Shown here one piece after another: positions 32,301 through 51,800 of a stretch of DNA of 64,000 nucleotides. The translations under genes and the position numbers were made by a program. The notes under the pieces were generated by a model that searched no databases, was not told where the DNA came from, and saw nothing but the letters and a program-made list of their open reading frames with translations. Position 1 is the stretch's first letter. Each line of letters begins with the position of its first letter. Source of the DNA: Styela clava (Eukaryota); the NCBI RefSeq assembly GCF_964204865.1, contig NC_135260.1, forward strand, positions 9,796,001-9,860,000, read 5' to 3'.

Positions 32301-34121
32301 GACGTGAGACTTCACTGTTAAAGCGTTAGACTTCACTGTGTAGACATCGACAGTTACACATCTCAGTCCCACCACCTCACCCAGAGTGTAATAAATTTGG
32401 TAGTCAATAACGAACTTGAAAGATTCCGCTCCTTTTAAGAATATGATTGCTGGCACATGCCTTGTTTAGAGCAAGAGTGGTTTAGCGTCATATAAAACAA
32501 GCTCACTATTTCTCGATGAATCATATCAAGTAGTTCTGTCTTTTGATTGTTATTCACTTTTTGTAGGAACCAACTGAACATGGTTGCTGATAAGAAAAAG
32601 GAATCCATTCTTCATCATTTGACCAAACAGAAAGAAGAGATTGAAATGTTGAAACGCACAAGACAAGAGTATGTCAATTAAAATATTTAAAAATGTTAGC
32701 CATAAACCACTGATTTAAAATGATAAAATTCGCATGTGGGTTGAGAAATGCCGCTAAATAAAGTTGACCAATAAGCAAGCAATTCAAATTTTGAGATGAT
32801 CACTCACAGATTTTACAGAGTGTAACTTGGATAGGTTTCAATTGTAATGTTTATTTCTATCTATTGAAACTCTTGCAATTCAATGAACTTGAAAGTATTT
32901 CAAAGAGACTTGTGCTCCGTCTTTATACAGACTCTACTAATTGTGAACATGACGAGGTCATGGCAACAGAACGCTGTATTTAATTAGTATGAAAGTTATT
33001 CCAGGATTTTTACGTGTAAATTTTGGGCGAATCGAAAAATGTGACTAAGTGAATGATATCAAAAACAACCTCAATTTGTGTTTAAAGTGTCACAAATTGT
33101 GTATCTTTTCTTTCCATATCAAGGCTGTAATAGGCAGAGAAATTGATTCCGGACTTTAAAATAATGAAAATACATTTTTAGGCTTATTGAAGATCGTATA
33201 AATGCTCATAACCGAGCATATGAGATGCGTCATTCCTTGGAAGACAACTGGAAAGATCATACTCGTAGCAAGCACAACAGAGAACATGAAGAAAAACAGA
33301 GAATGAGAACACCAGGAATGCTTCTTCTTCAACAAACTGAGAAATATGAGTGAGTTTTATTTTTAGCTTTTGCCGTTTGCTTAGTATAGAAAGTGAAAAC
33401 ATCACCTGATTCTGGGTCACATCAAACACGACATTACAATTTGTCCTCAAATCAGCGAATAAAGCGGGTAAAACTAGGAGACACATAAGAAATTAGAAAA
33501 ATATATAATGTACTTCTAGGAAATAATTAAATCTTTAACGACTTAAACTCTGAAAACTTTTACGGTAGTTTAGTATTTAGGGAGTAAAGCAAGCTCTTTC
33601 AACCATCAACCTAATCTGAGTCTGTGGGGCCAAAAGTTTGGCATATCTTCACTGGAGTCAAAATTTCAAATCGAAATACTTACAATGGTGATAATATAAG
33701 TCAAAATTTTAAGTCGAATTTACTAAGCGTTCTTAACACTCTATTTAAGTAGGCTTGCATACAATGTTTTTGTTATCAGAATTTGATTTTCTTGGAGTTC
33801 GGAGCTGGAGTCAAAATATTTACGACCTCCGGAGTCGATTGTAAATTTTCTTTTACGGCACTGACAGGATCACCCATGACATGATCCTGCACAGGCGATA
33901 CACTAATTTGTTGTACAAGATGACCCAGTAAAAACGGGACCCATAGAATATGTCCAAATGACCCGGCGAGGGGTTCACCCTATAAAAAAAATTTTGTGCT
34001 TCATTGTCACAATCTATTTTTCAGTCGATGCGGCCAATGTGAGAGACGTGTTACAAACTGCGGAGAATCAAACATATGGAGCGAATCTCGTTACATTCCT
34101 GGTTCAAGACTGATGGTTTAA
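14323..34121 (+). CDS. CCDC81: Coiled-coil domain-containing protein 81 (N-terminal HU-like domains), 18 coding exons
   Basis: Exons 14323-14401, 15287-15505, 16384-16481, 17200-17358, 19292-19380, 20265-20335, 22527-22668, 24955-25088, 26548-26662, 27285-27441, 28193-28300, 28541-28624, 29373-29458, 30199-30277, 31787-31911, 32567-32668, 33182-33349, 34025-34121, all in phase. Signature peptides KGVHIANLGTFTF...QRPVFVLSEKF, AGQELCYLCMQRA and RCGQCERR...NIWSESRYIPGSRLMV. Confidence 0.92.
14935..15110 (-). mobile_element. tRNA-derived SINE family D (related copies about 18345-18490 on - and 24750-24930 on +)
   Basis: B-box-like GGTTCAATTCC/GGTTCAAACCC followed by a shared body in three diverged copies. 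Confidence 0.5.
15720..15955. mobile_element. Palindromic MITE family B (GG...CC termini, 8-bp TSD)
   Basis: Long TIRs (ggtactcccgtagtatgtgaaccaagat... / ...atcttggttcacatactacgggagcgcc); TSD GAATTTTT at 15712-15719 and 15956-15963. Confidence 0.85.
16597..16897 (+). mobile_element. tRNA-derived SINE family C
   Basis: A-box-like TGGC and B-box GGTTCAAGTCC; body shared with the copies at 26.9-31.8 kb and 51.5 kb; ATCCT tail. Confidence 0.6.
18574..18858. mobile_element. hAT (Charlie-like) MITE
   Basis: TIRs CAATGGTCGGCAAA / TTTGCCGACCACTG; 8-bp TSD CTTTAAAC on both sides. Confidence 0.85.
19733..19978. mobile_element. Degenerate hAT-like MITE
   Basis: TIR GGGTGTGCAA / TTGCACACCC with TGGCCC subterminal motifs; no clean TSD. 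Confidence 0.55.
22685..22875. mobile_element. MITE family B copy
   Basis: ggtactccc...gtaccaggttagggttaggccataatt...ggagcgcc, matching 15720-15955. Confidence 0.7.
24509..24618. mobile_element. Short MITE family B variant
   Basis: TIR gtgcaccaagatggc / gccatcttggtgcac; 8-bp TSD TGTCTTTC at 24501-24508 and 24619-24626. Confidence 0.8.
25144..25396 (+). mobile_element. Helentron-associated (HINE/DINE-1-like) non-autonomous element
   Basis: Subterminal inverted repeats acttatcgatcttagatcggtaa / ttaccgatcttaagatcgataagt; internal (ACAG/AC)n microsatellite; no TSD; T-rich insertion site. Confidence 0.6.
26951..27192 (-). mobile_element. SINE family C copy (further fragments 26667-26760, 27935-28145, 29010-29160)
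   Basis: Shared blocks acatatttatccc, cttaatcatatgg, tagccagttatttg and taatcagaggtg. Confidence 0.7.
28691..28892. mobile_element. MITE family B copy
   Basis: TIR gaaccaagatggcggaca / tgtccgccatcttggttc; near-perfect TSD CAAAAAAA / CAAAAAAC. Confidence 0.8.
29730..30143. mobile_element. hAT MITE with TCGAA subterminal repeats
   Basis: TIR TAGGGCTGGGCATTT / AAATGCCCAGCCCTA; 8-bp TSD ATAGCCAT at 29722-29729 and 30144-30151. Confidence 0.88.
31470..31750 (-). mobile_element. Near full-length SINE family C copy
   Basis: The minus strand begins GGTGTGGCAC...GGTTTGAATCC (A/B boxes), followed by the shared body. Confidence 0.7.
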
Positions 34122-34590
34122 ATAAATTTAAAAAAAAGATACTAGCACTTAAATGTTGATATGTTTGCCTTTATAATTCTTATTTTTTAAAAAACGAATA
34201 GTGTCAAATATTTTTGTAGTGTTTGTCTCTGCCATTATGCACTGTCCACTATATATTGTTTGTTGTATTGTCCCTAGCATAGCTTTTTATGTTGAAAGCT
34301 GATCGCCATCACAGATTACCTAACACAGCTAATTTTAGCACTGCTAGATTTTATATAAGCGAATGGCATTTTTGTGTTGCGTTGTTGTCCTATTTCTCAT
34401 AAAACTGCATCTCATTTTATGTAGGCTGTGCTTTATCCTGTCATGTAAACGTAAATAGACTACTGTGGCACGCTGGATCGTATTTCGGCATTTCTCTAGT
34501 TCAATGTTTTAATTTATATAGGCGAGTGTTTTTCACATTTGCCAAGTTATTTACTAAGGATTAATTAAAGCTTGCGATTACTACTGTTGC

Positions 34591-34626
34591 AAAATAAAAT
34601 GTACAATTTTATTTTTCGATTTTATT
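34591..34626. terminator. Candidate bidirectional polyadenylation signal between convergent CCDC81 and XPO5
   Basis: AATAAA on + at 34593-34598 and on - at 34613-34608 and 34626-34621, forming the inverted repeat AAAATAAAAT-gtaca-ATTTTATTTT. Confidence 0.45.
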
Positions 34627-35668
34627 GAGAAAAGGGCAGACGGGAAATAAAAAGGAACAAAATCACCACATAGTCCTTCCTCCGAGACAAATCATGGTTT
34701 TACGAGGGCTTCAACCCAAAACGGCAAAAAAAAATTCAAATCCAACTCCCATAATTTTTTTTTGAAATACTGGTAGAGCACATATTTCATTGTAATATTT
34801 TCAAATAAAGACGTTTTTGGATATTTCAACATTCGCCATTGACTTAAAACCCTCAAAATAATTCCTATAAATATAAACCAATCAATCTCAAAGATAATGG
34901 CTGTTGAATTCAAGAGGATGTAAGATATTGCAGCCAGTAGACACACTGCGCCAGGGAATTCATCAGGAAAATAAATACCTCATTTATAATGTGGATGTAC
35001 CTTTTATAAAATTTGTGACATGGTGAGTAATAACAGGATTCACCCTTGGTTCTAATTTGGTATAGTATGTCCTTTAATTTTTAGGGCTTAAACTTCAATA
35101 TTCACACCTGGAGATTTAATCATATGGCAGACCATGGCCTATCATGCGTTCATCAATTTAAGTCTGGTATTGGAATTAACCAATCAATTGCTCAATATGT
35201 ACGGAAAGAATACATACATACTTAACTACATTTTGACAAATGATAACCACAACACACAAAAGCTAACAAGGAATTCATATCACCAAGAAATGCCACATTA
35301 CATTATGAAAAACCATATAAATGCAATGTATGCTATAATTGTTCATTTGAAATCAGTTCTCGAAAAGGATATCCAAAGAATTTAGTTGGAAATTGGTAAA
35401 TCAGAATGTATTTACAAATAAAATGGGTTGTAAAATAGGGAGGGTATTCTCGTCTGCAAACGAATGTTTTTGGCATGGATGCTCATATAATTCATGTAGT
35501 CTTTCAGTTTCAGAAAATTTGCCATATTTTAGCGGAAGCAAGAACTTCTGTCAATATTTTGAAAAAGAAAAATTTAATAACATGATTTTGCTGGAAAATA
35601 GCTTAATTTAGATGATTCTTAATCAAAAAACAGAATTGCAGAATTATCATATGCAGATCTCATATACT

Positions 35669-38600
35669 TCATCTTCCATCTGGTTTGAAGAAAAATTCCA
35701 AGCCCAAACTCTCAATTTCATCAATATTTAGTGACTTTGCCTTTTTTCCAACAAAAAATCGTGGAAGAACTCTCATTTCTTGTTTTGATTTGAATCGCTG
35801 GCCAATATGCTGATCGACAATTTTGATCATAAGCTTCTTAAATGTAACTTTCCGTTTCTTCTCTGCATACTTTGTATACCCCTGGTCAAACGTTGCTAGG
35901 GCTTTTTTGTCCAGAACAGGAATACCTTGAAGTATAGTTAACAAAGAATTATGTGTGGGCCGTAGAGCTACATATACATAAAGGCTTAAGGCTAGCAATT
36001 GAGCTTGACAACCATCATGCTGTCCTTGACGTTGTAGGCCAAGAAGTACAGACTCAAATATAAATTTAGCAGCATCATCAGGCACTTCTTTCGTCTCAGT
36101 GAATGTATGTTTCAAAAGCCCCCATAAAAGATGAACGCCCTTATAAGCAGTTGCTGTGTCGTGCCAAGATATGGACATCAAACCAGTTGTTAGAAGCAAT
36201 TCAGCTATTTCGGTATGCATTAAAGATATTCCAATGGATGTAAGTTGACTTAAATTTGTTGTATTTTGTGTAATATTATTATCTTCTTGCATTTCGGTAT
36301 CAATGTTAGCGTCATTTTCCTCTTCTTTGGTATTTGATTTAGAATTTGGTTTCTTGTTGATGCACAAATTCACTAAAAGTTCAAGATATTCACGAGAAAC
36401 GATTCGTAAAAGCTGTTCCTTCAAGATTTCATCTTCTTCTTTTGTATCTTCATATTCTTGGCATTTATCAGACATAGACTCAATCACTTTTAGTCTTTCT
36501 TGTTCTTTGGTTCCATATTCCGTCCATTGGCACTGAAGCATTGAATTCATGAAATTGCAATATTTGTGAAGAATAGGTGCAACTACCTGATTAAGGTGTG
36601 ATTCAGGACACGATTTCATGAAATAATATAAGAACTGCCTTGTAAAAGAACGGATTCTTAATTCAGGCAATGTTTGAAAATCAGAAAATGATTTGGCTAA
36701 TATTTCCGGGAACAGATCAGCACTGCCATAGAATAGAACATTACAGCATTTTCCAACAGCGCCTAATATTTGATAACAATTTTCTAATACTATCAAAATA
36801 AATGTTTGCATCTTTTCCCAGGGTTCTTTTTCACGATTTTCATTTGGATCTTTAGTAATAGGATTAAATGAAACCATGGTCTTCCTTTCAGTCTCTCTGA
36901 TTAATAGACTTTTTGAATAATCGCTATGTACAATAGATTTTATACCAGCTGTCCAAAGTCCATGAAACATTTGCACTAAACTTGCAATATTGCCCATAAC
37001 TCCAATAACATGGGAAGCACAAGGGTGTAATACAACACCATTTTCATTCAAAAACCCACCGTTAGAAAGCGCTTTTGCATCCTCTGGAATTCGAGATCTG
37101 TTGATCATAGCCAGAGTGAGAGAAACACAGAAGCTAATATTGTTACGAAAATTACTAAATTGTTCATCTCTGTATTGTGATGAAGGTGAACTAAGTCCGA
37201 TAGCGGCAGCAAATTCAATTGGTGCAGTCATTCGAATATCATCCTTTGCAAGCCACATGTCATTTGCCAACGACATACCTTCTTGAATCAGAGCACTCTG
37301 TTGCTCAAACATGTTCCATTCACCACTAACAAGAACCATTGACTCATATACACATATTTTTTCCAAATGTGTGAGGCCATTTGGAATAGCAATTATTTCA
37401 CTCATTGCCTGTTGGAACTGTTCATATATTGTAATAACATGATCAGGATGATATTTACAAATATGTATTGTGGCAGACAGGCCATGTCGACGAAACTGAG
37501 ATACAACGGGTCCCCAGCGTTCAGGATGTGACATCGACATTTTTACCATAGCTGCATATTTGAAAACTATACTAATCAAAAATTTCTTTTTGTCATCAAA
37601 TATTTCTATGACTGGTAGAAAGCATCCTATAAGACTAATGAGGCATTGACAAAGGCATATATCTGTTATTTCACAGTTTATCAAATCCATAAGAAGGCTT
37701 TCCATTTTTGCAACTGGCATTGATTGAATCGTATCTTGCTTTTTTGAGAAAGTAATGGCAGTCTTCAAAACAATCTCGAGAATGTTTCTTATCGCATCCC
37801 ATCTGAGATAGGTAGGAGATTTTGATGTACATTGTTCTAATTTTGCACCATCTGAGCCCATTCCAGTTTCAATCGGCAAAGAGAGTTCGGCAGTCAAAGC
37901 TTCCAAAATAACATTGGCACAGTGGATGGGCATAACTCGTGTACAGCCACGAATAATTTGCAGAAGAGTGACACGATGGGAAAACACGAAAGCTTCAATT
38001 TCTTCATCATCATTGAAGTCTAACTGCGCAGGGAGAGACAAAGATGGAGCAACATCCTTTCTTATACCTTTAGCAGCCACTTCAAATAACTGTGGAACAT
38101 ATTTTACAAAAGTTTCATCCCTAGCTATACTACTGTTTTGCAGTAACTGATACCATGATCCACTTACTTCATAGGATAGAACAGGATTATCTTGACACAA
38201 AAAATCCATCAATAAGTCAAGGTATGCTGTATGAGAAGCTAAATTTGTAATTGTACTGTCTGATACTTCATCAGACCAGGATGAAACAATCTGCCCAGAA
38301 AGCAGTGAAAGAAAATTTCCCATTCGCTTGAGAAATAAATATTGTTCGTTTTCTTGTGAATGAGCAGCAGCATCGGTTATGGATGCTACTATAGTTTCTA
38401 TGTAAACTGGTGTTGAAAGGGTTAAGACATATTTTCTGTCTGATGCTTGTCCTTTGCGAAATACAGCCAATGCCAGGCACTCAACTGCCAATACTTGTAA
38501 TCCTCCTACATTTAGGAGTTTACAAAGTAGGCGAATGAGTAACCCTTCGTTTGCGAACACATGCTCCATATTAACCCATTCTAAATAACCCTGAAGTGTT

Positions 38601-39274
38601 TTTAAAGTGGATATTGATAAAGTTCTATACATGTCAAGTTCTTGCAGTTCCGTTGCATTAGCCTTTGTGTACAGTTGAATGTATATTGCTGAATTGCTTT
38701 CAAGTACGTCATAAAAAAATCTCATAATTTTTCCCATGCATAAGGAAAGACCATGTCGTATGTCTTGACTCCTATGGGAAGCTGACACAGTATGCAACAC
38801 TGCAACATCCTCTGCTATTCTGAGGAAAACCAGTTCAACTAGCTCGGTCTGAATTGGCCCAAGCTTCGCTAGATCAATTAAATCCTCAATCATGGATGGC
38901 CATTGTTGTGGCCATACATGCTTGATGATTTCAGCTAATGTATGAGCAATACCATCCTTTACATAGCTACTTTCATGCTGAAGACAGCTTTCCATTAAAA
39001 GCATAGCATTATTCTTAATTTGAATTTGTATTTCTTGACCAGTTTTTGTCCAACGGTTATGCACAAACTGTTGCATTAATTGCAAACCAAAGTGTTTAAT
39101 ATGGGGAGCAGCATCAGATTTAGACGCCAGAGCAAAACCAATTGAGCAAGCCATCTCGTTTTCTTTACATGCTTCACAAATACTATGAGCTGTCGCACGA
39201 TCGCCAGGTAGAGTATTCGGATTTAAAATGGCATCTACGGCGTTCACTATTTGTAGTAACATTTCGTCCTCCAT
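35669..39274 (-). CDS. XPO5: Exportin-5, single coding exon (about 1201 aa from the first ATG)
   Basis: Uninterrupted ORF with importin-beta N-terminal/Xpo1 motifs (KHFGLQL...HNRW, AEIIKHVWPQQWP, ELVFLRIAEDV) and the XPO5 C-terminus (LLGLQRQGQHDGCQAQLL). First ATG at 39274; the track's 39313 start is TTG. Confidence 0.93.
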   Translation of the reverse strand: MEDEMLLQIVNAVDAILNPNTLPGDRATAHSICEACKENEMACSIGFALASKSDAAPHIKHFGLQLMQQFVHNRWTKTGQEIQIQIKNNAMLLMESCLQHESSYVKDGIAHTLAEIIKHVWPQQWPSMIEDLIDLAKLGPIQTELVELVFLRIAEDVAVLHTVSASHRSQDIRHGLSLCMGKIMRFFYDVLESNSAIYIQLYTKANATELQELDMYRTLSISTLKTLQGYLEWVNMEHVFANEGLLIRLLCKLLNVGGLQVLAVECLALAVFRKGQASDRKYVLTLSTPVYIETIVASITDAAAHSQENEQYLFLKRMGNFLSLLSGQIVSSWSDEVSDSTITNLASHTAYLDLLMDFLCQDNPVLSYEVSGSWYQLLQNSSIARDETFVKYVPQLFEVAAKGIRKDVAPSLSLPAQLDFNDDEEIEAFVFSHRVTLLQIIRGCTRVMPIHCANVILEALTAELSLPIETGMGSDGAKLEQCTSKSPTYLRWDAIRNILEIVLKTAITFSKKQDTIQSMPVAKMESLLMDLINCEITDICLCQCLISLIGCFLPVIEIFDDKKKFLISIVFKYAAMVKMSMSHPERWGPVVSQFRRHGLSATIHICKYHPDHVITIYEQFQQAMSEIIAIPNGLTHLEKICVYESMVLVSGEWNMFEQQSALIQEGMSLANDMWLAKDDIRMTAPIEFAAAIGLSSPSSQYRDEQFSNFRNNISFCVSLTLAMINRSRIPEDAKALSNGGFLNENGVVLHPCASHVIGVMGNIASLVQMFHGLWTAGIKSIVHSDYSKSLLIRETERKTMVSFNPITKDPNENREKEPWEKMQTFILIVLENCYQILGAVGKCCNVLFYGSADLFPEILAKSFSDFQTLPELRIRSFTRQFLYYFMKSCPESHLNQVVAPILHKYCNFMNSMLQCQWTEYGTKEQERLKVIESMSDKCQEYEDTKEEDEILKEQLLRIVSREYLELLVNLCINKKPNSKSNTKEEENDANIDTEMQEDNNITQNTTNLSQLTSIGISLMHTEIAELLLTTGLMSISWHDTATAYKGVHLLWGLLKHTFTETKEVPDDAAKFIFESVLLGLQRQGQHDGCQAQLLALSLYVYVALRPTHNSLLTILQGIPVLDKKALATFDQGYTKYAEKKRKVTFKKLMIKIVDQHIGQRFKSKQEMRVLPRFFVGKKAKSLNIDEIESLGLEFFFKPDGR

Positions 39275-39353
39275 TTTTAGTTCATAAGAGTATGTAGCGT
39301 ACAAAAATGACAATTTTTTTAAATTATTTAAATAAGTGAGGTTAACTTAGTTA

Positions 39354-42300
39354 TTAGGATTGATCGGATTGATGCTTTCTAGCAATTTCTTGCTGCTTCT
39401 TCTCCCACAAACGCTGTCCGTCACAAAAACCAAGTTTGCCTTTGTTGAAAGAGTTTGGGCCTGATGAAGTTGGTGTGTTTCTGAAGATAAATTCAAAAAT
39501 GTTCTTTACAAGTCGATAAGAAACAGGAATAGGATATTCTTATTTATACTAACAAAGGCTAGGGAGCCAGAGTTGGAGCGAAGCTTATCATACAAGATGA
39601 CCATCGAGCCGAAGCTACCAGAAACTTTGTTGGCTCCAGTTCTGAAACATCTTTTTATTTTTCACATTTATTATTTTCTCATACCTCATACAAATAATGA
39701 AATCTGTCCTTATCAGCGTATAACTTTTTTGTAATTAATTACCAATATTAATTTAAAAATTTCAAGTTTAAATTATATAATCAAGTTAATTTACAATTTG
39801 AAACCATTTGGGTTGTTGTTTCGGGGTGAGTAGTCTACTGGTCAACACAAAAAATCTAATGACTATGCAGCCGGATCCCCAGTTTAAATATGATTAATAT
39901 AACTTTTAGGGAGTTAAACATCAGACAAATATACCTTCCAATGTTCTTCATTCGCATCTTAGCCTCTGGAGGAATCTCTTCTGGTTCACTCTACATCAGA
40001 AACAAGAAATACATAACATTCTGCGACAAATGACTATAAATGTATGTATGAATATTGTGGAAATATTAGACTTCTAGGAATGCAATAATAACTACTTGGT
40101 ATCTATAAATGGAATGATTTTATTGTCAATGAAAAAGACGAGCAGAAAATGAAAACGGCTACAAAAATTTTATGCGCAAGTAAACAGAACACTTTGGCAA
40201 TGATCCATGGCGAACAACAGGGAATAACACCTCTATACTACACAAAATTACTTTACATTCAAGTTTATCTCAGTAAGTAAATAAAATATCGATATTGAGA
40301 TATTTCATTTTTTCTTTGAAATTTGAATTTTTTCTCTCTGAATTGAACAATTGGAGGATCTTTAACGAAAAGCCAACACAAATTGACAAACATATAAGAA
40401 GACTCAAGTCAAGAAATTTTATTTTTTAGTTTCTTTCAAAAATGGTTGTCTGAATATATCATGTAACCGCTTTGCTTTTAACCCCCCTAAACCAGGCAAT
40501 AAAGCTAAATCATGTTCTGTAGCTTTTGCAACATTGCTCAAATTTTTATAGTTTGATAATAAAGTGTGTGCATCAGTGGAATTAACAGATTTAACGGATG
40601 ATAAAGTCTCGGCAAGTCTTGCTGTGAATTCTTTCTTTATTTTGGTTTGAATCAAGTCCGCAGGTTTATTCCTATACGCTTTGAAAGTTTCTAAATACGT
40701 CCCAGCTTCTTCGTTACTAAATGCCAGCAAAAGTGTCATTTCCGATACTAATGCAGCTTTCGCAAGTTCCTTAACTGCATGAGCAGGCTCTTTGACATCA
40801 ACGAGCCCCAGAAGCACTCTAATGGAGAACTGACCAGATTTCCGCAATGCTTGAATACGGTCGTATATATAATTTGGTTTTAAAGCATGATATCGAAGAC
40901 TTAGGAATAAACAACAAGACGTGGCACTCATAATGTAATCAGGTACCATTCCGGCATCTTTGTCCGCATATTGCCAAGGAACATTACATATGTTATCCAA
41001 AACGGGATTACCACGCTGACATGGGTTAACCATAATAGCATTGCCAGATCCTAGAGCAAAAGTTCGAGTGCTCCCTCCACTTGGAAGACAAGCCTTATAT
41101 TCAGCTTCAGCATCTTTTTGTAAGAATGCAAACGCACTTGTAAATGAGACGGTTCCAGATGGGCCTGCTATATCTTCAATTGCCACCTTTTCTGTGCTTG
41201 ATTTTGTACTTGAATTACCATTCTCATTAGATTGCAGATCTTTCCCATGGGCCGAGTTGAGAAACTCTCCTAATATTTTATCATTTTCATCTGATTCATA
41301 ATCAGCCATTTTCAATCAATAAATCTCAATTACTAATAAAGATAACTAGGTCAATGAAGAAAAGTTCGTCAGTTAAGCCCGAATAACGAGTCCAGTTGAT
41401 ATAATAATTTTGGTTAAATTGGAGTTCAAACGATGAAGATTATGGGTATGAGTGAAGAAATATAAACAATATTGATATTGTAACTAGCTCCAAATAGATT
41501 AGAAAAAATCATTCTTGGATGCCAATTTTGCCAGATATTTAGAAATATGTTTACAACAAACCAGGCCATATGCAACCAAAGGTAATTTTTAAGTATGCCA
41601 TCGCCAACTTACTACATAGGCAAGATATACTGGTATACAAGTGATAACAAATACAACAATACTATACAAGGTCAAACTATACATATAGTAATAAATTATT
41701 ATCTAAGATATAAAACAATAAAACTGGCAAACCTTTCTACAAACATAACAAAGAGAAAAGCTGAACGAAAAAGTTTAGTTTAGATATGGAAAGTAGCTGC
41801 CCATTACATGATTCCAAATGGAAACTGCAAATGACTAGTATTAACAGAGTATAAAAAATATCATTAACCTTTTTATTCCCTAGCACTGATTTCAAATTTA
41901 TTTCAGTAAAATGTATCCATTAAAATCCTACAACCCTTTCGAAATTTGAGGGATCTAATAGGGCAATGCAACAGTGTCAACTTATGTCAGATCATATTAA
42001 CCCTTTCATTATGTCAACTGCTAGAGTACCAGAAATAGGCATGTCCCTCTTATCGATAGACAGTGTGTTAGCTAACTTGAAAATACTGTAAGTTTAAGAG
42101 ACGACCATTACACTAGAATCCCCACAAAATTGCATTAAAATGGATAACTTAAGAATGATGGTAAGACCGGATTTCTGATTCAGATCAAGACCGAAATTCT
42201 GAGTGTTGTTTCTGGTTCAGACCTTAGAAATTTACATTTGCATGATTCTCAGATCAGACCAACTAGGCATGGTTCCCACGGTACACGGGACCTGTTGGTG

Positions 42301-44365
42301 ATATATTACGAATTGATTGGGGGAGACTGGGGCATGTGAGGATGAATCAAAGTACAAAATTTCAACTTTACAAATAGTACAATAAAGACAATTGAAAACT
42401 TCTTCTAGGCTATCCCGTATTTTAAGTTTAAAAAAGGGGTAACGAATTCTCCAGTTTAGCAGGGTAATTCGAAAGTGGAAGGGTTAATAGATCATTTGAT
42501 GACAATAAATTGTATGTATTTAGTAAATTACTTACATCACTGTCTTCATTAAACACAGCTGCAACCTTACTAGATTTCTTCACGACAGTTGGTTCTGTCT
42601 TTGTTTTGTCCTTCTGTAATTTTCAGAGACATTTTGTAATTTTGGCCACAAAACGCTAGTATTATTTATTTCAAAATCTCATTTATCAAATATCTAATTG
42701 AGTTATACACGAACAGCAAGCTCGAAACCCCTTTTATATCTACCACAATAGGCCAAACAAATAGACCCCATAAATTCCAGTATTAGTAAAAATGAATTCA
42801 TTATTATATCGTATAAGAATACTGCTAATCATGAAGGGATTCTGTTTATAGTTAAATTTCTATTATAGCATTGGTTATCAATATTGGTAATCGTACAAAA
42901 TTCCCAACCATGATTTTCACTCACTGCCAGTTTTAAAGCAATGGGGTTGAGATTTTTTTTCATGGCACCAGGCTTCAATATCTTTGTAGTTGTGGCAGGC
43001 TTCTTGTTTGATGTAGAAGACTTAATATTGAACCCAATGGAAGGCTTCTTTGATGGAATAGTTTCGGATGAGGTCTCTGTAGATGGTCTTTTGTAAGAAG
43101 ATGCCTCTGTTAGAACAAGTCAAAACTTCCCAAGATGAGAATGCATGCCTAATTTCAAGCAATAAAATCAAAAAATTGTCAACAAAGTCAACGAGGATAA
43201 GCATGATTGATAAAATTAGCTCCATAAACTGACAAGCCATTCCACATCAATATGAAATAAGTCTACAAACTTGGTATTTTCATTAAATTATAACTTTTTA
43301 CCAATATCTATAAATGATACTTTCATATTTCTACAGGATATATTACGGTATTATGTAATATTTTGATGTACAACAGATGAAATGGCGTAACAGTATGGGA
43401 TTCATGACATGAAGTAACATAGAGTGTATTGTGTCACCTCTTTTACTCTTATTAACAATATCATTGAACTAATGTACAAAAGAATATTTATTTGAGAGTT
43501 TAAAAATTGAACAGGTGGAAATTGTCAGATTTATATATACTAGATCCATTTGAGTATAGAAAACACAGCATTTTAATACATGTGAAACATATAACGAGAG
43601 TAAAGAAAGTTTTGCAATAATATTAAACTCGTGTAGTTTCGTACCTAACAAACTTCTAGTGGGCGAAGCATAACAATTTTTTGACATGTCAATCCTAATC
43701 CCCACCCGACTACGGCATCCAAAAATTACGTCACAATCACGTCATAGAGCTTGCCAAATACACGCACGATCGCCCGAAATGGCATCAGCGCCGACGATAA
43801 AGAACTGACTAACGTCAGCGATCTCTCTCATATTGGGATCGTTGCGACAAGAAAACGAGAGAAATAGCTGTTCGATTTCTTGTCTGCGCGTCTTGGGTGA
43901 CAGTTCGTATAGTTTGAAGGGCTCTATTACATCACTGTGACGTTGTAGTGACGTAATTTTTGGATGGCGTAGTCAGGTGGGGGTTAGGATTGAAACATGA
44001 AAAAATTGTTATGCCAGCCCTCTAGAAGTACGTTAGGTACGAAACTACACGAGACCCAAAATTACCTCAAACATAAAGCTGTAAAGCCAGAAAAGACATT
44101 TCAATCTAAAACATGGCCTAAAATGCATACAAACATATGATGATACAAAATAACAATACGGCAATGAAAGCATACAGAGGTAAGGTACGTGAGGCAGTGT
44201 TTTCTAAAAACATATTTCTATTGAAGCTCAAAAGCTGTATCGGTATCGGTAGGTACCTATTGTGAGGTAACGTTAGGTCAATTTAGCAATTATGCGCCAA
44301 ATACTATCACAGAGACGCGATAACCAAATTTTATACTCACCATCCCTGCGATACGTGTCTGCCAT
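39354..44365 (-). CDS. PCNP: PEST proteolytic signal-containing nuclear protein, 5 coding exons
   Basis: Exons 44365-44341, 43106-42925, 42613-42536, 39990-39935, 39480-39354 in phase; peptides [56 protein letters not shown] match the PCNP C-terminus. Confidence 0.93.
40419..41309 (-). CDS. ERCC1: DNA excision repair protein ERCC1, intronless, nested in PCNP intron 3
   Basis: [11 protein letters not shown]...VPWQY...PDY...LFLSLRYH central domain and C-terminal HhH2 ([10 protein letters not shown]...[16 protein letters not shown]). ATG at 41309; the track's 41315 start is TTG. Confidence 0.95.
   Translation of the reverse strand: MADYESDENDKILGEFLNSAHGKDLQSNENGNSSTKSSTEKVAIEDIAGPSGTVSFTSAFAFLQKDAEAEYKACLPSGGSTRTFALGSGNAIMVNPCQRGNPVLDNICNVPWQYADKDAGMVPDYIMSATSCCLFLSLRYHALKPNYIYDRIQALRKSGQFSIRVLLGLVDVKEPAHAVKELAKAALVSEMTLLLAFSNEEAGTYLETFKAYRNKPADLIQTKIKKEFTARLAETLSSVKSVNSTDAHTLLSNYKNLSNVAKATEHDLALLPGLGGLKAKRLHDIFRQPFLKETKK
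43628..44057. mobile_element. Palindromic MITE family A (PCNP intron 1)
   Basis: Imperfect TIRs over 100 bp long (ctcgtgtagtttcgtacctaac... / ...gttaggtacgaaactacacgagaccc); the left terminal GGGT is missing. Confidence 0.8.
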
Positions 44366-45137
44366 ATTTTGAAATCACAGATTATACGATCCAAAACCAG
44401 AATTAAAATCCAACAACGATGCTGAAGCGCAAACGAACCAAAACGAAATCATCCACGGAACACCGCCTTGTGGTCGTGTAACTAAAACGTGTTGAAAAAA
44501 CACCAAATGGTCATTTCATATTTCCCTTTAAAAAATTCAGGGTTGCGAAGAACTGAAGAACAAGGAATAGAATTATTTTTCAAACTCAGACCACGAAACG
44601 CAGAATATATCTAAGACAGGCTGTAAGAGCCGGTAGTAGAAAACGACATTTAAAAGTTATATCTGGTTTTTCCGCGACGAGAACAAATTTTTTTTTCTGA
44701 CATAAATTAAGAAAACGCAAACACACAGTTTTTCGATGTTTATTAGTATCTTGCGTTTTTTACCTTCTGTTTTTTTTTTCAATCGTCTATCCAGCATGTC
44801 ATGAGTTAATGGTGTAACATATGATTATGATATGTGTTATGAATAGCGTTAACAAATTATCGCTTCTGACAAATCTTAAGAGATAAGACTAAATTTCTGC
44901 TATTATATCGTAAATCTCAAATCGAGATTCCGCGACTTCAAAATTTACAATGTCGATTCTTATTATCGCGCAATACACTGAATTTTGACTTAATTAATTT
45001 GTTAATATTACTTTCACATCCTGCAACCGATTCCGGTGCGGCAGCGCGTATGCTGCGAAACCACGATCCACAAAACTTAGGAGATGCTCATTGATTCCTC
45101 GCTAATTTTGACTAGCTCTTTCTCAACTATCCTAGGC

Positions 45138-45777
45138 TCCGTAATGTAAAAAATTTGATTCCTAATGGGAAAATAGAAAAATGGTCAAATGAATTGTGCA
45201 AGAACTTGGATAATTAGTTGACGCAGTATGAAAAAGTGTTTTATTGCACTATTAAATCGCGACTTAGATCTTTCCATGTCAAATTTTCTCTGAGAGCAGT
45301 GCCTACAAATGACCTGTTATTTAGAATAAATAAGACATCAAGTCCAAAATGTACATTTTGTGAGAGTCATGTCGAAACAGTGTTACATTTATTTTATTTC
45401 TGTTAATTTGTGCAACACTTTTGGGAAATAGTGAATGCATAGCTAACTGTTGAATATGGGTTAAATCTTGATCTGACATATGAAGAAATTTGATTTTGGC
45501 CTTTGGGTAGGGCAAAACCAAGGTATAAACTGTGTTTTACTAAGTGCAAGATATTATATTTATAAATGTAAATTACGTAATGAGAGGCCTCAATTTGATC
45601 AATTTTTATATATGATAAAAAGTATTTTCAACTGTGAAAAAATTATTGCAACTAAAAAATGTAAACTGTCGAATCATGTAAAAAAGGGGAAAATTATCAT
45701 GAACTCATTTTTTTAAGTGCAATTGTAATTATATGTTATCGTGTGTATAAAAAGTGATGTTTTTAATAATAAAAAAA
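45138..45777 (+). mobile_element. 5'-truncated L1/Tx1-type LINE (C-terminal CCHC zf-RVT region)
   Basis: Peptide RAVPTNDLLFRI...PKCTFCESHVETVLHLFYFC...ARYYIYKCK with stops; AATAAA plus A-tail; 13-bp TSD AACTATCCTAGGC at 45125-45137 and 45778-45790. Confidence 0.85.
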
Positions 45778-46292
45778 AACTATCCTAGGCCGTTAGAGAC
45801 TCTAAGCACTTAGGACTGTGGTGTCATATTGGAAAAAATAATAATAATAGGAATATAACAAGAGTTCCGTGTTATCTGAAATTGAATAAATAAGTTTTAG
45901 GGTATATTCTTTAATAATTGAAGGCCAGATTATAATTAATTTGCATGATATTTTTCGGAAATAGTTCTCATAACTACAAACACTTATAGATAGGTTTAAG
46001 ATGATACTTATAAAAGAAAAATAAGCAAAATTATTCCAGCTGGGCCAATACTGTATTTAGGTCTGAACAATCACTTCATTAAACACAGAGGCACTATTGC
46101 AAACTCGGATATGACAATTTCTGTGATATCGTCTTTTCCTAGGTGCACTAAGCACGTATTTTAAATGGTGATTTCATCCCTGGATGCAACACTCTCGCAT
46201 AATTACACGCCTACAAATCCGTCAGCATGATAGAGAAAGACTAAATCACGCGTTGTATACAAAACTAATGAATTCAGTGAAGCCGATTAATA

Positions 46293-46463
46293 GTATTGAA
46301 GTTACGGTGTAATGATATTCAAACATTCAACGACTGACGCCTTTTAACATAATTGAAGTTAATGAAATGCTATTCAAACGTTCAACGAATGAAGCTTTTT
46401 AGCAGTATTGAAGTTACTGTGAAATGCTATGTGAACTTTCAACGACTGACGCTTTCTGGCAGT
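46293..46463. repeat. Three-copy tandem repeat with a unit of about 57-59 bp
   Basis: Unit approximately gtattgaagttac.gtgaaatgctattcaaacnttcaacgactgacgc.ttttagca. Confidence 0.75.
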
Positions 46464-48832
46464 ACAAGCGAGGATCTTGTGAGGATGAGGTGTTGATCTA
46501 ATCTTAAATTCTCTTTTCTTCGAGCATGGTCATAGTAATACGCCTGATACATATACACTGCAAAACTCATTCAGTCACAATGGGATAACAGCATAAATAA
46601 ATGGAGATTCGGCATGATTAACGCCAGGCATACAGCCAGATTACCATTGCATGATAAATATCTGGAGATTCTATTGGGCGATCGAATCTCAAACTAATAT
46701 CAAACGCATCTTTCACACGACAAGCCAAGTAGATCGCGGGTGTACTTAAATGCCTCTTCCGGTTATTGTATCTACATATCAACTTGAAATGGGATTCATA
46801 GAACAGTCTTCATAAAGGAAATGAATCCACGCAAACACTAATATAAAAGATTGGCAGACATCCGCGCCATACTAAACGCCCAATTCAGAGAGGGATATTT
46901 GGAGTGGAGTGTAACTAAACATAGCAAGGTGCGTCACCATACAACATGTGAATGGTTTCTATAACGCTGGTACATTATACAGTCATTAACAAAAACAAGT
47001 TTTTGGAACTTACAGCTCCTTTTACTTTTGTCAAATCAGAAGAAGCATTACACACAATACAAATGCATCATTGCAAAAGCAGACAAAAAATGTTCGAAAC
47101 AATTTCGATTTGCTTGGGTCAGTCGAGGGTAACTATTTTTTAACTTGCTGCAGATTTAAGGGGACCCGGGCCAGTATTTTTACTATTGATAATATCAAGA
47201 ATCATAGATAAGAACACAAAGAGTAACAAAAACACACAAAAAACAATAACGAAAACAAATCCAATCTAGCCATAAAAAGTTTAAACATACATGATTGTTC
47301 ATGGAACTTGAAAAAACGTATGAATCACTTCATATTCATATTAAGTTCATTTAGGAGGCTAAGATGTAAAGATGGCGCAATTATTTTGAATAAAACGTTC
47401 ATGCATACAAAAACATAGCTAGCAGCTTAGTAATAGAACAAGATGATTGATAAAGAAAAAAAAATGAATCTGGTTCAACACAAAGACTGAACCTCCACCA
47501 AGGTTTGTACGCACAGTACATGCAGGAACATTCCATTACATATGGAACCATTATTCAAAAAGTTACAGAATGGCGCAGTGATCAGCTTCATTGTGTAAAA
47601 GCTATGTCCTCAAAAAGGTATGATAAAACGAAGAAATCTTAACAGGAAAATTCAAAATTTGCTGAAGGAAAATGAGTTGAGTCTGTAGAGAACTGATGCA
47701 CTGAACAAGGCATGTCCATTTTTTGTGACTCTTCTTATGTCACATGGGGCAGATAGCATGGCTGACACATTCCCTCGACATTTGGGCAGCAAGCTGGTTC
47801 CTTCATGTGCTCAAGAACCCTCCATAATTCCTGTATTAAAAACATAACATTCATAAGCACATTGCATTGATATTTTCTTTTAAAAGGAATGGACACCCCG
47901 AATACATCAAGACTAAGAAATAACCATTTGCATGATAACGCAGATTTCAAAAATCAAGATTCGAGACAAATACAAAATAGGTTTAAACGCAAATTTGAAT
48001 GCTCAAATATTAAATAAAATTGTCCAAAAATATAAAATTTCTTACTGTTCATTTTGGAGTGAAAATCGATCAAAATCATACCTCTGTCGAGATGAAAAAT
48101 TCTGCACCAGATTTGTTTAAGAATAACGACAGAACTGTTTACAGATTCAGTTTTTGGTCTCAGGTGCCAAATCCACAATTTGTGCCAGCACGATCCAATA
48201 AGTGCATAGCAGTTTCTTCAAGTTCGTTTTTTTTTTTTTTGAGAACTTTCAGATGTCACCAGAACTTTCGAATGAATGAAGTTGTTTTACGCTTAAATCC
48301 ATATTTTCAAGATGAAGTCTTATTTCAACGCAACGTTTTGACGAGGTAAACCATTGATAAGGTGAACCATATAGTTTCTGAAGGCTTCGTTTTTTGCCCA
48401 TTTTCATGAGGTTGCTAATTTTGAATCCTCTGCCCAAATACCAGCCAAAGTCATTTTTGAAGACTTTGGGATTCACAACTGACAAATTTGACAATATTCG
48501 AAGTTTGAACAATTTTATTGCAATTTTATACAGAGACCGGATTGAAACTTCGCACGATCGTGAAGTACAAATTTGAACAAATAATTCATTCAGCAATAGT
48601 TTTTATAAAGTTTGAGCGTAGTTGGTGTAAACAAACAAAAGACGAGACGCTACAAAATTGACAAAGTAAATAAAATAAAAATAAAAGTAAAATGAACTGG
48701 GCACAGGCAGGATAACATCATTGAGCAAAACCATTGTGATTATTCACAACCTTTCAAGTTCAAATAAAAATAAGTTTTTTTCTCTGTCTTGTTACATAAA
48801 CAAATACCGAATTGTACCCCATTACAGAGAGT

Positions 48833-51800
48833 TTACATCCACTGTGATTCGTCAGTGAAGTCACCCAATGGTTGCTGAGCAATGGGCTGATTACCCCACA
48901 TGTTTTGAGAATTTTGACCCCCCTCAGTCTGCCTTCGTTTTCCACCGACACCATCGCCATTGAAGTTAGCCTTACGTTTGCCACCTAGATTTGGTTTTCC
49001 ACGGGCTCCTCCGCGGCCGCCCCTGACCCCCTGCCCACCGCGACCACGGGCCATGAAGTTCATTGGGCCACCCATGCCCATACCCATGCTGATCGGTGCA
49101 GAAGAAAAGAAAAAATGAATGATTTAAATTTTGATAATCGAATTGAAAAAAATTTCAAATTTTTCAGACTATGTTTAAATTTTTTTTTATCACATATCAT
49201 GACAAAGCCCCTGTAATAAATAGATATTTTTCCAAACTGTTCGGCATCATGCTCGTACATCACATTCGAACACTTAACTTTTTGAGGAAATATTAGATTT
49301 TTATTACTTTTAGGGACAATTAATTGGGTGTCTGGAACGATATTCTAGCCCATAACAATATAATAACTGTCTATTACAATAATAATATGACTTGCTCACC
49401 TGCCTCTGTATCCTCTCATCATCATATTTCCGCGTCCTCGAAAGCCAGGTCCACCCATTCCCATTCCACCAAAATACGGGTCATCGTAGCCTCCGCCAAA
49501 ACCACTTCCGAAGCCCATGTAATCGTAATAATCATCGACGAATCCGCCACTGTTGTACGGCATCGGTGGAAAACCCATTGGGCCCATATGTCCACCACGT
49601 GGTCCTCTTCCGCGCTGCCCTCTTTGATTGAACTGCCCGGGTATGCCCATGCTGCAATAGCATAAGGACAGAGTTAAAAATGAATTTTTGCATTGCCGAA
49701 AAATAAAAATGCTTCTCTACGTACTGCTGATTCATTTTTCGTTCCATTTGTCTTTCCTTCTTTTTTTTATCAACTGGTTTTGCAAGGCTGATTTCAATTG
49801 GTTCACCTTCCAGATTCAGACCGTTCAGCTCTTGCATTGCCTGTAAATGAAGTAAATATTGGAACAGAATACAGTAGTACTTCTTCAGACACTGTTCTAC
49901 TTATAGAGATCGATAAAAGAAAAGCAGAACCTTACCTTCAAAGCCTGCTCTCTATCTTTAAAATGCACGAAAGCGTAGTCCTTGATTTTTTTCACTCTTT
50001 CAATTTCGCCATATGAACTAAATGTTGTCTGGATTACTTCTTCGGAAGCTTTGGTCGCCAAATTTTTCAGGTACAGAACCTTTACCTGTAAAAAATAACG
50101 TAAAGGTTGATTAGCTAGGTTACACAACTGCAAAGACCCCAAACTTAAATTTCATGAAAAGTGTTGACGGGGCTAAGTTCCGACATCTTAAACTCTTGCA
50201 GCCATTTAACGATAACTGTCTAAACGAAACGAGTCCTGACTCAATGAGACCTAACTGAGTGAGTGACTCGACCATACTTCTCATCAAAAGGTGTAAAAAA
50301 TTAGGTTGGGCTGATGACCAATGACGAGCAGCTATGAGTTTAGGGACTTTTACCCAACACCGAGAACGATAAATACCAATAATATATAGGTATATATATA
50401 TACCTTTGACATGACTTCATCAGATGGATTATCGATCGGATCAGCCCAGTCCACCGACACAAGATTATTCCAAACTTTTGTTTTTCCCGATCCAAGTTTT
50501 CGCCGTGCTTGCGATGCAGACTTGTGATCAGTGTATTCAAGGAAGCAGAATCCTCGGTTTTTCGACTTGTCCTCGGTTTGATGATAAACAATGACATCTT
50601 TTAGACAAGCTGCAACAAAAATGTTTTACATTACTTCAAAATAAGATTAAATAATGTCTGTCTCTGGTCACGGATGTCTGCAGATGAAATAAATTTGGCA
50701 TTGGCAATAACTGAATTATCAGAAATCAATAAATTGTTACAGTTTAGACTGAAAGATGCAGAAGGGGTGGGTGCCTCATGTATACTTACTTATTCAGTAA
50801 TCAGCATCTTACAGTTATATCACAATTTATAAACAAATTTATTTGCTATGTATATGACCACCTCAGATCTGTTGAGCTTATAAGTAGGTTTCATCACATA
50901 TAAATATGACGGGGAAAGAAGTATTCTCATCACTGGTGGTAAATCAATCAAAATAGTAAAAACAAATAATATTAAAAATGAGGGCAAAACAATCTTACGT
51001 GATAAACTCTGGAACTCTTCAAAAATTTCATCTTTTGTTTTATTTTTAGGTATTGAACCGATAAACAGGCGACAATTTGATTGTGACAGGCAGACGCCAA
51101 GAAATTTTTTCGGTTTTATTTCGTAATTGTCCAGCTGTGAAACCAGAATGCATTGTTTAAATGAGTAAAAATCTGTTTGACCTAATCTGGCTCAGTGGCA
51201 CTTCCAATAAAGCTTTCTCAATCAAAATCTCAGAGATGAACTTGTGATGACAATGTATTTTTTTTTATATATATTTCAGTAATCTAACCAATTTCACGGA
51301 TTCCACTGCCATGTCTCTCTGTACGAATGACGCGAAACCGTAGCCTCTATTTTGCCCTGATAATGGTTCCATCATTAGTCTGAAATCCCATATTGTACCG
51401 GCTTTTTCCAGAAGTGGTATGATTTCATCTTCAAAGACATCTCTTGGAATTCGACCAATGAATACCTGTTATATAGGATACAAACATAATAATACAAAAC
51501 TGAAACATTGGAAATAGAATTTGCATACTTATCCTGGGAAAGAGGAAAGACTGCTTGTATGGTATCTCATTTCGTTACTTGTGCATTTCGGGGACGGGAA
51601 TAGATAACCAGTTACTTGATTCAGATACATGGGCTTATTATTAATGGAGGAGTAACCAATCAGGAGTCATGTGAACTATCCTACGAAACTTCTCACATAT
51701 ACATTCAAACTCGAGATTCTCTGCAGGATAATCAGAGGTGTGATGGCACACATGTTCCTAACACCTAGCTTAATCTGCCAAACACCTGAGAGTTATTGAA

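What the first reader, a model, noticed from the sequence alone, without database searches (positions are those of the whole stretch)
39274..39482. PCNP last exon may double as the XPO5 5' leader (cis versus trans use of one acceptor)
Seen: PCNP exon 5 (39480-39354) contains no ATG in any frame, and the 79-nt spacer has a single AG, in CTAAG just after the stop. Inference: trans-splicing onto the exon-5 acceptor (39481) would give a monocistronic XPO5 mRNA, whereas cis-splicing gives PCNP mRNA carrying the whole XPO5 ORF as a multi-kb 3' UTR or bicistronic message.
Basis: partly seen in the sequence, partly recalled or inferred. Interest (0 to 1): 0.7.

Follow-up and report, generated by a model that had tools for sequence, protein, structure and literature searches.

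The report
Three-gene sea-squirt operon with nested gene
In a sea squirt, an intron-free DNA-repair gene (ERCC1) sits inside an intron of the PCNP gene and an intron-free RNA-export gene (XPO5) starts 79 bases after PCNP ends, and all three are likely made from one promoter and likely cut apart by adding a spliced leader, but the proposal that PCNP's last exon doubles as XPO5's front end is unproven and only second most likely.

Summary
The coordinates are right: PCNP exon 5 has no ATG and the 79-nt spacer has one AG. The real feature is larger. Intronless ERCC1 lies inside PCNP intron 3 on the same strand, intronless XPO5 follows PCNP, and each gene is single-copy. RNA contigs confirm PCNP's splice joints and run from exon 4 through the spacer into XPO5 (2 of 4 runs, one study). 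CpG content marks one promoter-like region, at PCNP's start. The genome holds tandem arrays of likely spliced-leader genes. ERCC1-XPO5 linkage recurs in Ciona, Clavelina and four unnamed contigs. Best reading: a Ciona-type leader-resolved operon with a nested cistron (about 0.7). XPO5 most likely takes its leader at the spacer's unpaired CTAAG (0.45); the exon-5 acceptor gets 0.25. No leader-bearing read was seen, so the site is undecided. The scan had not noted this locus before; it noted an intron-nested intronless gene in another tunicate genome.

The parts
44341..45100 (-). CpG-rich region over PCNP exon 1 and upstream; likely the unit's promoter region
   Evidence: CpG obs/exp 1.6, z +3.5, against 0.56 over 35000-43600
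44341..44365 (-). PCNP exon 1 coding part (ATG at 44365)
   Evidence: joint 43106/44341 in 3 of 4 runs; frame check
42925..43106 (-). PCNP exon 2
   Evidence: joints
42536..42613 (-). PCNP exon 3
   Evidence: joints in 4 of 4 runs
41346..41347 (-). AG of a candidate trans-splice acceptor for ERCC1 (leader 36 nt, no ATG)
   Evidence: sequence; one RNA contig (X1) ends at 41347, the base an SL branch predicts; weak hint
40419..41309 (-). ERCC1, intronless, 296 aa, nested in PCNP intron 3 on the same strand; single copy
40119..40124 (-). AATAAA, candidate ERCC1 poly(A) signal inside intron 3
   Evidence: use not shown
39935..39990 (-). PCNP exon 4 (two in-frame ATGs; strongest acceptor of the unit)
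39481..39482 (-).
   Evidence: cis-spliced in 4 of 4 runs; T-rich CAG, top 5.5% of AGs
39354..39480 (-). PCNP exon 5 (terminal coding exon, no ATG)
39275..39353 (-). 79-nt PCNP-XPO5 spacer
   Evidence: covered by RNA contigs
39346..39347 (-). only AG of the spacer (CTAAG); unpaired candidate trans-splice acceptor for XPO5
   Evidence: use not shown
39314..39320 (-). A7 run followed by a U/GU-rich tract; possible PCNP 3' end
   Evidence: sequence; X1 contig end at 39343 fits a branch at 39313 but also an allele bubble
39277..39285 (-). minimal out-of-frame uORF ATG-AAC-TAA in weak start context
35669..39274 (-). XPO5 (exportin-5), intronless, 1201 aa; single copy

Best explanation
Intronless ERCC1 lies inside PCNP intron 3 and intronless XPO5 starts 79 nt after the PCNP stop, all on one strand, and the three are likely transcribed from the PCNP promoter as one precursor that spliced-leader trans-splicing likely resolves, with XPO5 likely receiving its leader at the spacer's single AG (39346) rather than at the exon-5 acceptor. 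Each precursor would yield one product. Cis-splicing of all four introns gives PCNP (shown by RNA joints). Leader addition at 41345 inside intron 3 would give ERCC1 (inferred). Leader addition at 39345 would give XPO5 with a 71-nt leader whose weak uATG is likely bypassed by leaky scanning (inferred). PCNP would end at or shortly after that AG, as upstream cistrons do in Ciona operons (inferred). The two intronless genes were likely inserted as processed copies early in ascidian evolution and captured the host promoter (inferred).
For: Shown: gene layout and frames. All four PCNP joints in RNA contigs, three in 4 of 4 runs and one in 3 of 4. Single contigs spanning exon 4, exon 5, spacer and XPO5 in 2 of 4 runs (X2, X4, one study). 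Intron 3 covered on both sides of ERCC1, with the intron 3/exon 4 boundary crossed in 3 of 4 runs, while introns 2 and 4 are nearly empty. One CpG-rich region at PCNP's 5' end and CpG depletion from 43600 to 35000; Ciona promoters are unmethylated and ubiquitous gene bodies methylated (PMC3827831, passages). Arrays of an SL-like exon followed by GT: 944 matches against 32 for the control pattern. ERCC1 and XPO5 have consecutive accessions in Ciona and Clavelina and share contig lengths of 17,950, 100,113, 306,268 and 498,124 nt. Known: Ciona operons are resolved at the AG where the upstream mRNA ends (19 of 19) and mostly lack AATAAA (16 of 18; PMC1488885 sections 14 and 17); the spacer has no AATAAA; 38% of operon genes are single-exon (PMC2760879, passages).
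Against: No SL-bearing sequence was seen on any of the three genes. A contig across two genes does not show a single transcript. CTAAG is a poor acceptor: it is AAG, has 5 T in the 20 nt upstream (77% of the window's AGs have as many), and the only good branch-like motif is 8 nt from the AG. An SL branch there predicts a contig end at 39349; none was seen in 4 runs (X1 ends at 39343). PCNP's 3' UTR would be only 8 nt. The highest CpG window inside the unit (1.04, 39120-39520) covers the spacer, a faint hint of a local promoter. PCNP linkage in other ascidians was not testable. 5 of 11 other ERCC1 records on long contigs had no XPO5 on a same-length contig among those looked up. L009 shows neither PCNP exons nor XPO5 within 4.3 kb upstream and 1.6 kb downstream of ERCC1.
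Confidence: 0.45

Rival explanations
1. One reading: the exon-5 acceptor (39481) is used in cis for PCNP and in trans for XPO5, so PCNP's last exon is XPO5's 5' leader. The precursor could come from the PCNP promoter or from a promoter within intron 4, which would leave the acceptor unpaired.
For: Strong acceptor (CAG, 11 T of 20). No ATG in exon 5. An isolated X1 contig of depth 3.4 covers the last 200 nt of intron 4 and ends at 39480, as an RNA released at this AG would. Trans-splicing at paired acceptors occurs in Ciona (PMC11155486) and at internal acceptors in Schistosoma (PMC5832876, passages).
Against: ATG absence has probability 0.145 given the peptide, and a uATG remains at 39285. The paired donor is not clearly weak (7 of 9 consensus, against 6-8 for the others). 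It is the fourth acceptor, not the first. No contig break at 39482 in 4 of 4 runs, though short leader tips are usually clipped. Intron 4 is CpG-poor (0.64).
Confidence: 0.25
2. XPO5 and ERCC1 have their own promoters (in intron 4, exon 5 or the spacer, and in intron 3), and the continuous RNA is overlap or read-through of separate genes.
For: Slight CpG bump over the spacer. ERCC1 has its own AATAAA. A Botryllus two-gene locus with read-through RNA and no SL on the second gene is described (PMC3691228, passages).
Against: No CpG-rich region upstream of ERCC1 (0.52, z -3.2) or in intron 4. Intron 3 RNA is continuous from exon 3 toward ERCC1. Tight linkage is kept across ascidian orders.
Confidence: 0.2
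3. XPO5 is translated from an unresolved PCNP-XPO5 bicistronic mRNA by reinitiation or internal entry.
For: Unbroken spliced contigs from exon 4 into XPO5 in 2 of 4 runs; the spacer is unstructured and AU-rich (-1.8 kcal/mol for 71 nt).
Against: Reinitiation after a 155-codon ORF is inefficient (established knowledge, recalled). Unresolved dicistronic RNAs occur as rare intermediates in Ciona operons. Contigs cannot show single molecules.
Confidence: 0.1

Closest known systems
Ciona SL-resolved operons without intercistronic DNA (PMC1488885, sections 13, 14, 17 read; PMC2760879, passages)
   Same: Same-strand neighbours under 100 nt apart, single-exon members, no AATAAA at the boundary, one SL, likely mutually exclusive products per precursor.
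   Different: Here one member lies inside an intron of another, and exons 4-5 may be shared. The boundary and SL addition are not mapped here.
Ciona TS-1stAS genes: cis versus trans use of one acceptor (PMC11155486, passages and section 12)
   Different: There it is the first acceptor with a weak donor and the product is the same gene; operons were excluded. Here it would be the last acceptor, the donor is not clearly weak, and the product would be another gene.
Caenorhabditis SL1-type operons (PMC9258526, passages)
   Same: Adjacent genes with no intercistronic region, resolved by the general SL.
   Different: Nematode system; no nested cistron in the passages read.
Botryllus fuhc two-gene locus (PMC3691228, passages)
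   Same: Stolidobranch ascidian genes 227 bp apart with spliced read-through RNA.
   Different: No SL was found on its second gene; the authors favoured read-through.

Membership tests
Ciona-type SL-resolved operon | same-strand genes under 100 nt apart | tested here: met
   79 nt from PCNP stop to XPO5 ATG
Ciona-type SL-resolved operon | organism has SL RNA genes | tested here: met
   tandem arrays of a Ciona-SL-like exon followed by GT, 944 against 32 control matches; candidate genes, not shown transcribed
Ciona-type SL-resolved operon | RNA across the cistron boundary | tested here: met
   single contigs in 2 of 4 runs, one study; not single molecules
Ciona-type SL-resolved operon | downstream cistron carries the SL | tested here: inconclusive
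   no SL loose end among those shown (the table was filled by a repeat, 226 rows hidden); one contig end fits SL at ERCC1
Ciona-type SL-resolved operon | upstream poly(A) added at the downstream acceptor AG | tested here: inconclusive
   contigs do not show ends; X1 break at 39343 fits poly(A) at 39314-39320 or an allele bubble
Ciona-type SL-resolved operon | single upstream promoter | tested here: inconclusive
   CpG profile supports one 5' region; indirect
Ciona TS-1stAS (cis/trans dual acceptor) | acceptor is the first functional acceptor | tested here: not met
   39481 is the fourth acceptor of PCNP
Ciona TS-1stAS (cis/trans dual acceptor) | paired donor is weak | tested here: inconclusive
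   7 of 9 consensus matches, others 6-8; no MaxEnt score available
Exportin-5 | IBN_N, Xpo1 and Exportin-5 domains, full length | tested here: met
   groups with ascidian XPO5 (quick tree)
ERCC1 | Rad10 domain plus HhH | tested here: met
   groups with ascidian ERCC1

The most novel reading that the evidence does not exclude
An interlocked operon kept across ascidian orders: one precursor gives PCNP, ERCC1 or XPO5 by competition between cis- and trans-splicing, with ERCC1 released from inside an intron, PCNP exons 4-5 serving as ERCC1's 3' UTR, and exon 5 serving as XPO5's 5' leader. One exon would then be coding sequence, 3' UTR and 5' leader for three genes, and the locus would record how processed gene copies are captured into operons.
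Probability: 0.22. Interest if true: 0.72.

Novelty: new variant of a known kind. Interest (0 to 1): 0.45.

Why it matters
How ascidian operons are resolved, and why they hold so many single-exon genes, were left open by the papers that described them. This locus puts a paired strong acceptor, an unpaired weak acceptor and an intron-nested cistron within 2 kb, with linkage seen in Ciona, where SL-seq data and reporters exist. It offers a direct test of how the spliceosome chooses cis or trans, and of whether processed gene copies enter operons by landing in or behind expressed genes.

Tried and rejected
No listed run is on record as RNA; 4 of 15 listed runs were laid, and their spliced joints and empty introns show RNA. 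A closer read-level view of 39000-41700 was not obtained, so leader and poly(A) junctions remain unseen. The Ciona SL pattern with 2 mismatches mainly hit a tRNA-gene array by coincidence. SL end plus Ciona Sm motif gave 33 matches against 75 control: rejected. PCNP homolog search with exon 5 found nothing, so PCNP synteny is untested. The metagenome scan gave 6 loci, one clearly an ascidian genomic ERCC1 (L009), with no PCNP or XPO5 nearby: inconclusive. The prokaryote-genome scan for XPO5 found nothing. No Rfam family in 33000-50000; no meaningful repeat at the spacer. PCNP-ERCC1 fusion by cis-splicing rejected: all three acceptors meet a stop. Contig depth was not used to rank genes. The hole in X1 at 39344-39410 proves nothing; its break at 39343 was first read as poly(A) and then downgraded, since an allele bubble explains both of its edges. 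One search's codon test used ERCC1 out of frame (0.18); it was redone (0.145). Ciona KH gene-model supplements were too large to read, and one supplement of PMC1488885 was not searched; they may already list this operon. Matsumoto 2010 and Vandenberghe 2001 are not held.

Full report
Observation. On the minus strand, 39480-39354 is the 127-nt last coding exon of PCNP, without ATG, and the 79 nt to the XPO5 ATG (39274) hold one AG, at 39347-39346. Pfam confirms PCNP and exportin-5. Neither feature exceeds chance: no ATG arises in 12% of shuffles and 14.5% of synonymous re-encodings of the same peptide; one AG or none in 33% of spacer shuffles and 12% of 79-nt windows. The spacer itself has an out-of-frame ATG-AAC-TAA at 39285 in weak context, so the XPO5 leader is not ATG-free from either acceptor.

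What the locus is. The best named relatives are ascidian, and members of the 90%-identity clusters of both long proteins are named Styela clava. PCNP has five exons making an open 155-aa frame. An intronless ERCC1 (41309-40419) lies inside intron 3 on the same strand, and XPO5 (39274-35669) is intronless. Each gave one locus in the genome. Cis-splicing from exon 3 into any of three acceptors before ERCC1 meets a stop, so no fusion protein results.

RNA. Four of 15 listed runs (3 studies, assembled contigs) were laid. Three PCNP joints appear in 4 of 4 runs and the first in 3 of 4. Introns 2 and 4 are nearly uncovered, which shows these are RNA. Single contigs run exon 4, exon 5, spacer, XPO5 in X2 and X4 (one study). 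In X6 the bin arithmetic fits two allele arms across the spacer. X1 has a hole at 39344-39410. Intron 3 is covered on both sides of ERCC1, and the unspliced intron 3/exon 4 boundary is crossed in 3 of 4 runs, so some ERCC1-region RNA runs into PCNP's last exons. Contigs show neither single molecules nor ends.

Leader. A degenerate pattern from the Ciona leader (PMC7986045, passages) gave 944 matches against 32 for the control, in tandem arrays where one exon is followed by a GT donor in two array types. With this candidate leader, an SL branch predicts contig ends at 41347 (ERCC1), 39482 (exon 5) or 39349 (CTAAG). X1 has an end at 41347; a rough post-hoc chance is about 1%, using a lower bound on the number of breaks, and X2 and X6 pass through that site. 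No run ends at 39482 or 39349. An X1 contig of depth 3.4 ends at 39480 from the intron side, and another ends at 39343, which fits poly(A) after the A7 run at 39320-39314 or an allele bubble. These are single-run hints.

Promoter. CpG obs/exp is 1.6 at 44341-45100 (z +3.5) and 0.56 over 35000-43600 (z -8.6), returning to 0.85 beyond XPO5; upstream of ERCC1 it is 0.52 and in intron 4 0.64. In Ciona, promoters are unmethylated and ubiquitous gene bodies methylated (PMC3827831, passages; PMC3333190, passages). This supports one promoter. Against it, the highest 400-nt window inside the unit (1.04) covers the spacer.

Conservation. ERCC1 and XPO5 have consecutive accessions in Ciona (XP_026694956, XP_026694955) and Clavelina (XP_076818539, XP_076818538, same-length chromosome). 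That is 6 of 11 ERCC1 records with long contigs or ordered accessions; the other 5 (20,935; 2,955,748; 16,607; 1,095,038; 162,572 nt) had no match among the XPO5 proteins looked up. Phallusia accessions gave no positional information. Accession order is only a proxy: the Styela pair, 1 kb apart, is numbered 142 apart. Trees place these proteins in both main ascidian branches (the XPO5 tree is the quick one). L009 shows directly an intronless ERCC1 behind a strong acceptor in another ascidian, without PCNP or XPO5 in its 6.9 kb. XPO5 is in two pieces on the 306 and 498 kb contigs, so it is not unbroken everywhere. PCNP's position elsewhere was not testable.

Mechanism. In Ciona, 19 of 19 mapped operons add the SL at the AG where the upstream mRNA ends, 16 of 18 lack AATAAA, and products may be mutually exclusive per molecule (PMC1488885, sections 13, 14, 17). 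Paired acceptors prefer cis-splicing, and trans-splicing at paired acceptors favours the first one with a weak donor (PMC11155486, passages and section 12). This prior favours the unpaired CTAAG. Its sequence is poor (AAG, 5 T of 20), while the exon-5 acceptor is strong and its donor ordinary. Weighing these by judgement: CTAAG 0.45, exon-5 acceptor 0.25, separate promoters 0.2, bicistronic translation 0.1. The operon reading as such is about 0.7. That vertebrate ERCC1 and XPO5 have many introns is recalled, not tested; origin as processed copies is inference.

Known and new. Ascidian operons, single-exon cistrons and cis/trans competition at one acceptor are known (also PMC5832876, PMC4691747, PMC9258526, PMC3691228 and PMC1636649, passages; PMC2760879, passages). 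Searches for a same-strand nested cistron in such an operon, or for this gene trio, found nothing relevant, in a library that lacks Matsumoto 2010. The Ciona gene-model supplements could not be read and may already contain the arrangement. Earlier scan notes had nothing at this locus; they pointed to SL arrays in this genome, which I found independently. Verdict: observation confirmed but ordinary, interpretation partly supported, real interest in the nested three-gene unit; new variant of a known kind, interest 0.45.

Noticed in passing
window 40419-41309 (-): Intronless ERCC1 nested on the same strand in PCNP intron 3, with RNA on both sides of it; linked to XPO5 in other ascidians.
   Followed up: yes
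window 40268-40377: A 110-nt skip in the ERCC1 3' region in runs X4 and X6 at about half depth, without clean GT-AG ends: heterozygous deletion or cryptic 3' UTR intron.
   Followed up: no
window 43628-44053: MITE-like element with long inverted arms in PCNP intron 1, very abundant in RNA contigs and CpG-rich.
   Followed up: partly
window 44422-44423 (-): Strong T-rich acceptor 57 nt before the PCNP ATG, near where RNA cover falls; PCNP itself may be trans-spliced.
   Followed up: partly
window 39991 (-): The exon-4 acceptor is the strongest of the unit and would be unpaired on ERCC1-derived RNA; leader addition there would give a 49-codon uORF (PCNP C-terminus) before XPO5.
   Followed up: partly
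L025, L026 (G000 C6 19.30 Mb; C4 23.47 Mb): Two tandem arrays (about 490 and 831 nt period) share one SL-like exon but differ downstream of the GT donor.
   Followed up: partly
L006 (G000 C3 24.86-24.96 Mb): Large tandem array of tRNA-like genes (read by eye, not scanned) whose spacer resembles the Ciona SL by 16 of 18 letters.
   Followed up: no
window 60177-62312 (+): Intact 711-aa hAT-type transposase ORF (DUF4371 plus hAT dimerisation).
   Followed up: no
window about 48830-50600 (-) and 15274-17370 (+): RRM gene upstream of PCNP (hnRNP Q/R-like by recall) ending about 4 kb away, and a CCDC81 gene.
   Followed up: no
P0265/P0354 and P0403/P0420: XPO5 is called in two pieces (about 920 and 247 aa) on two contigs of one ascidian cluster: an intron or a break in that lineage.
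   Followed up: no
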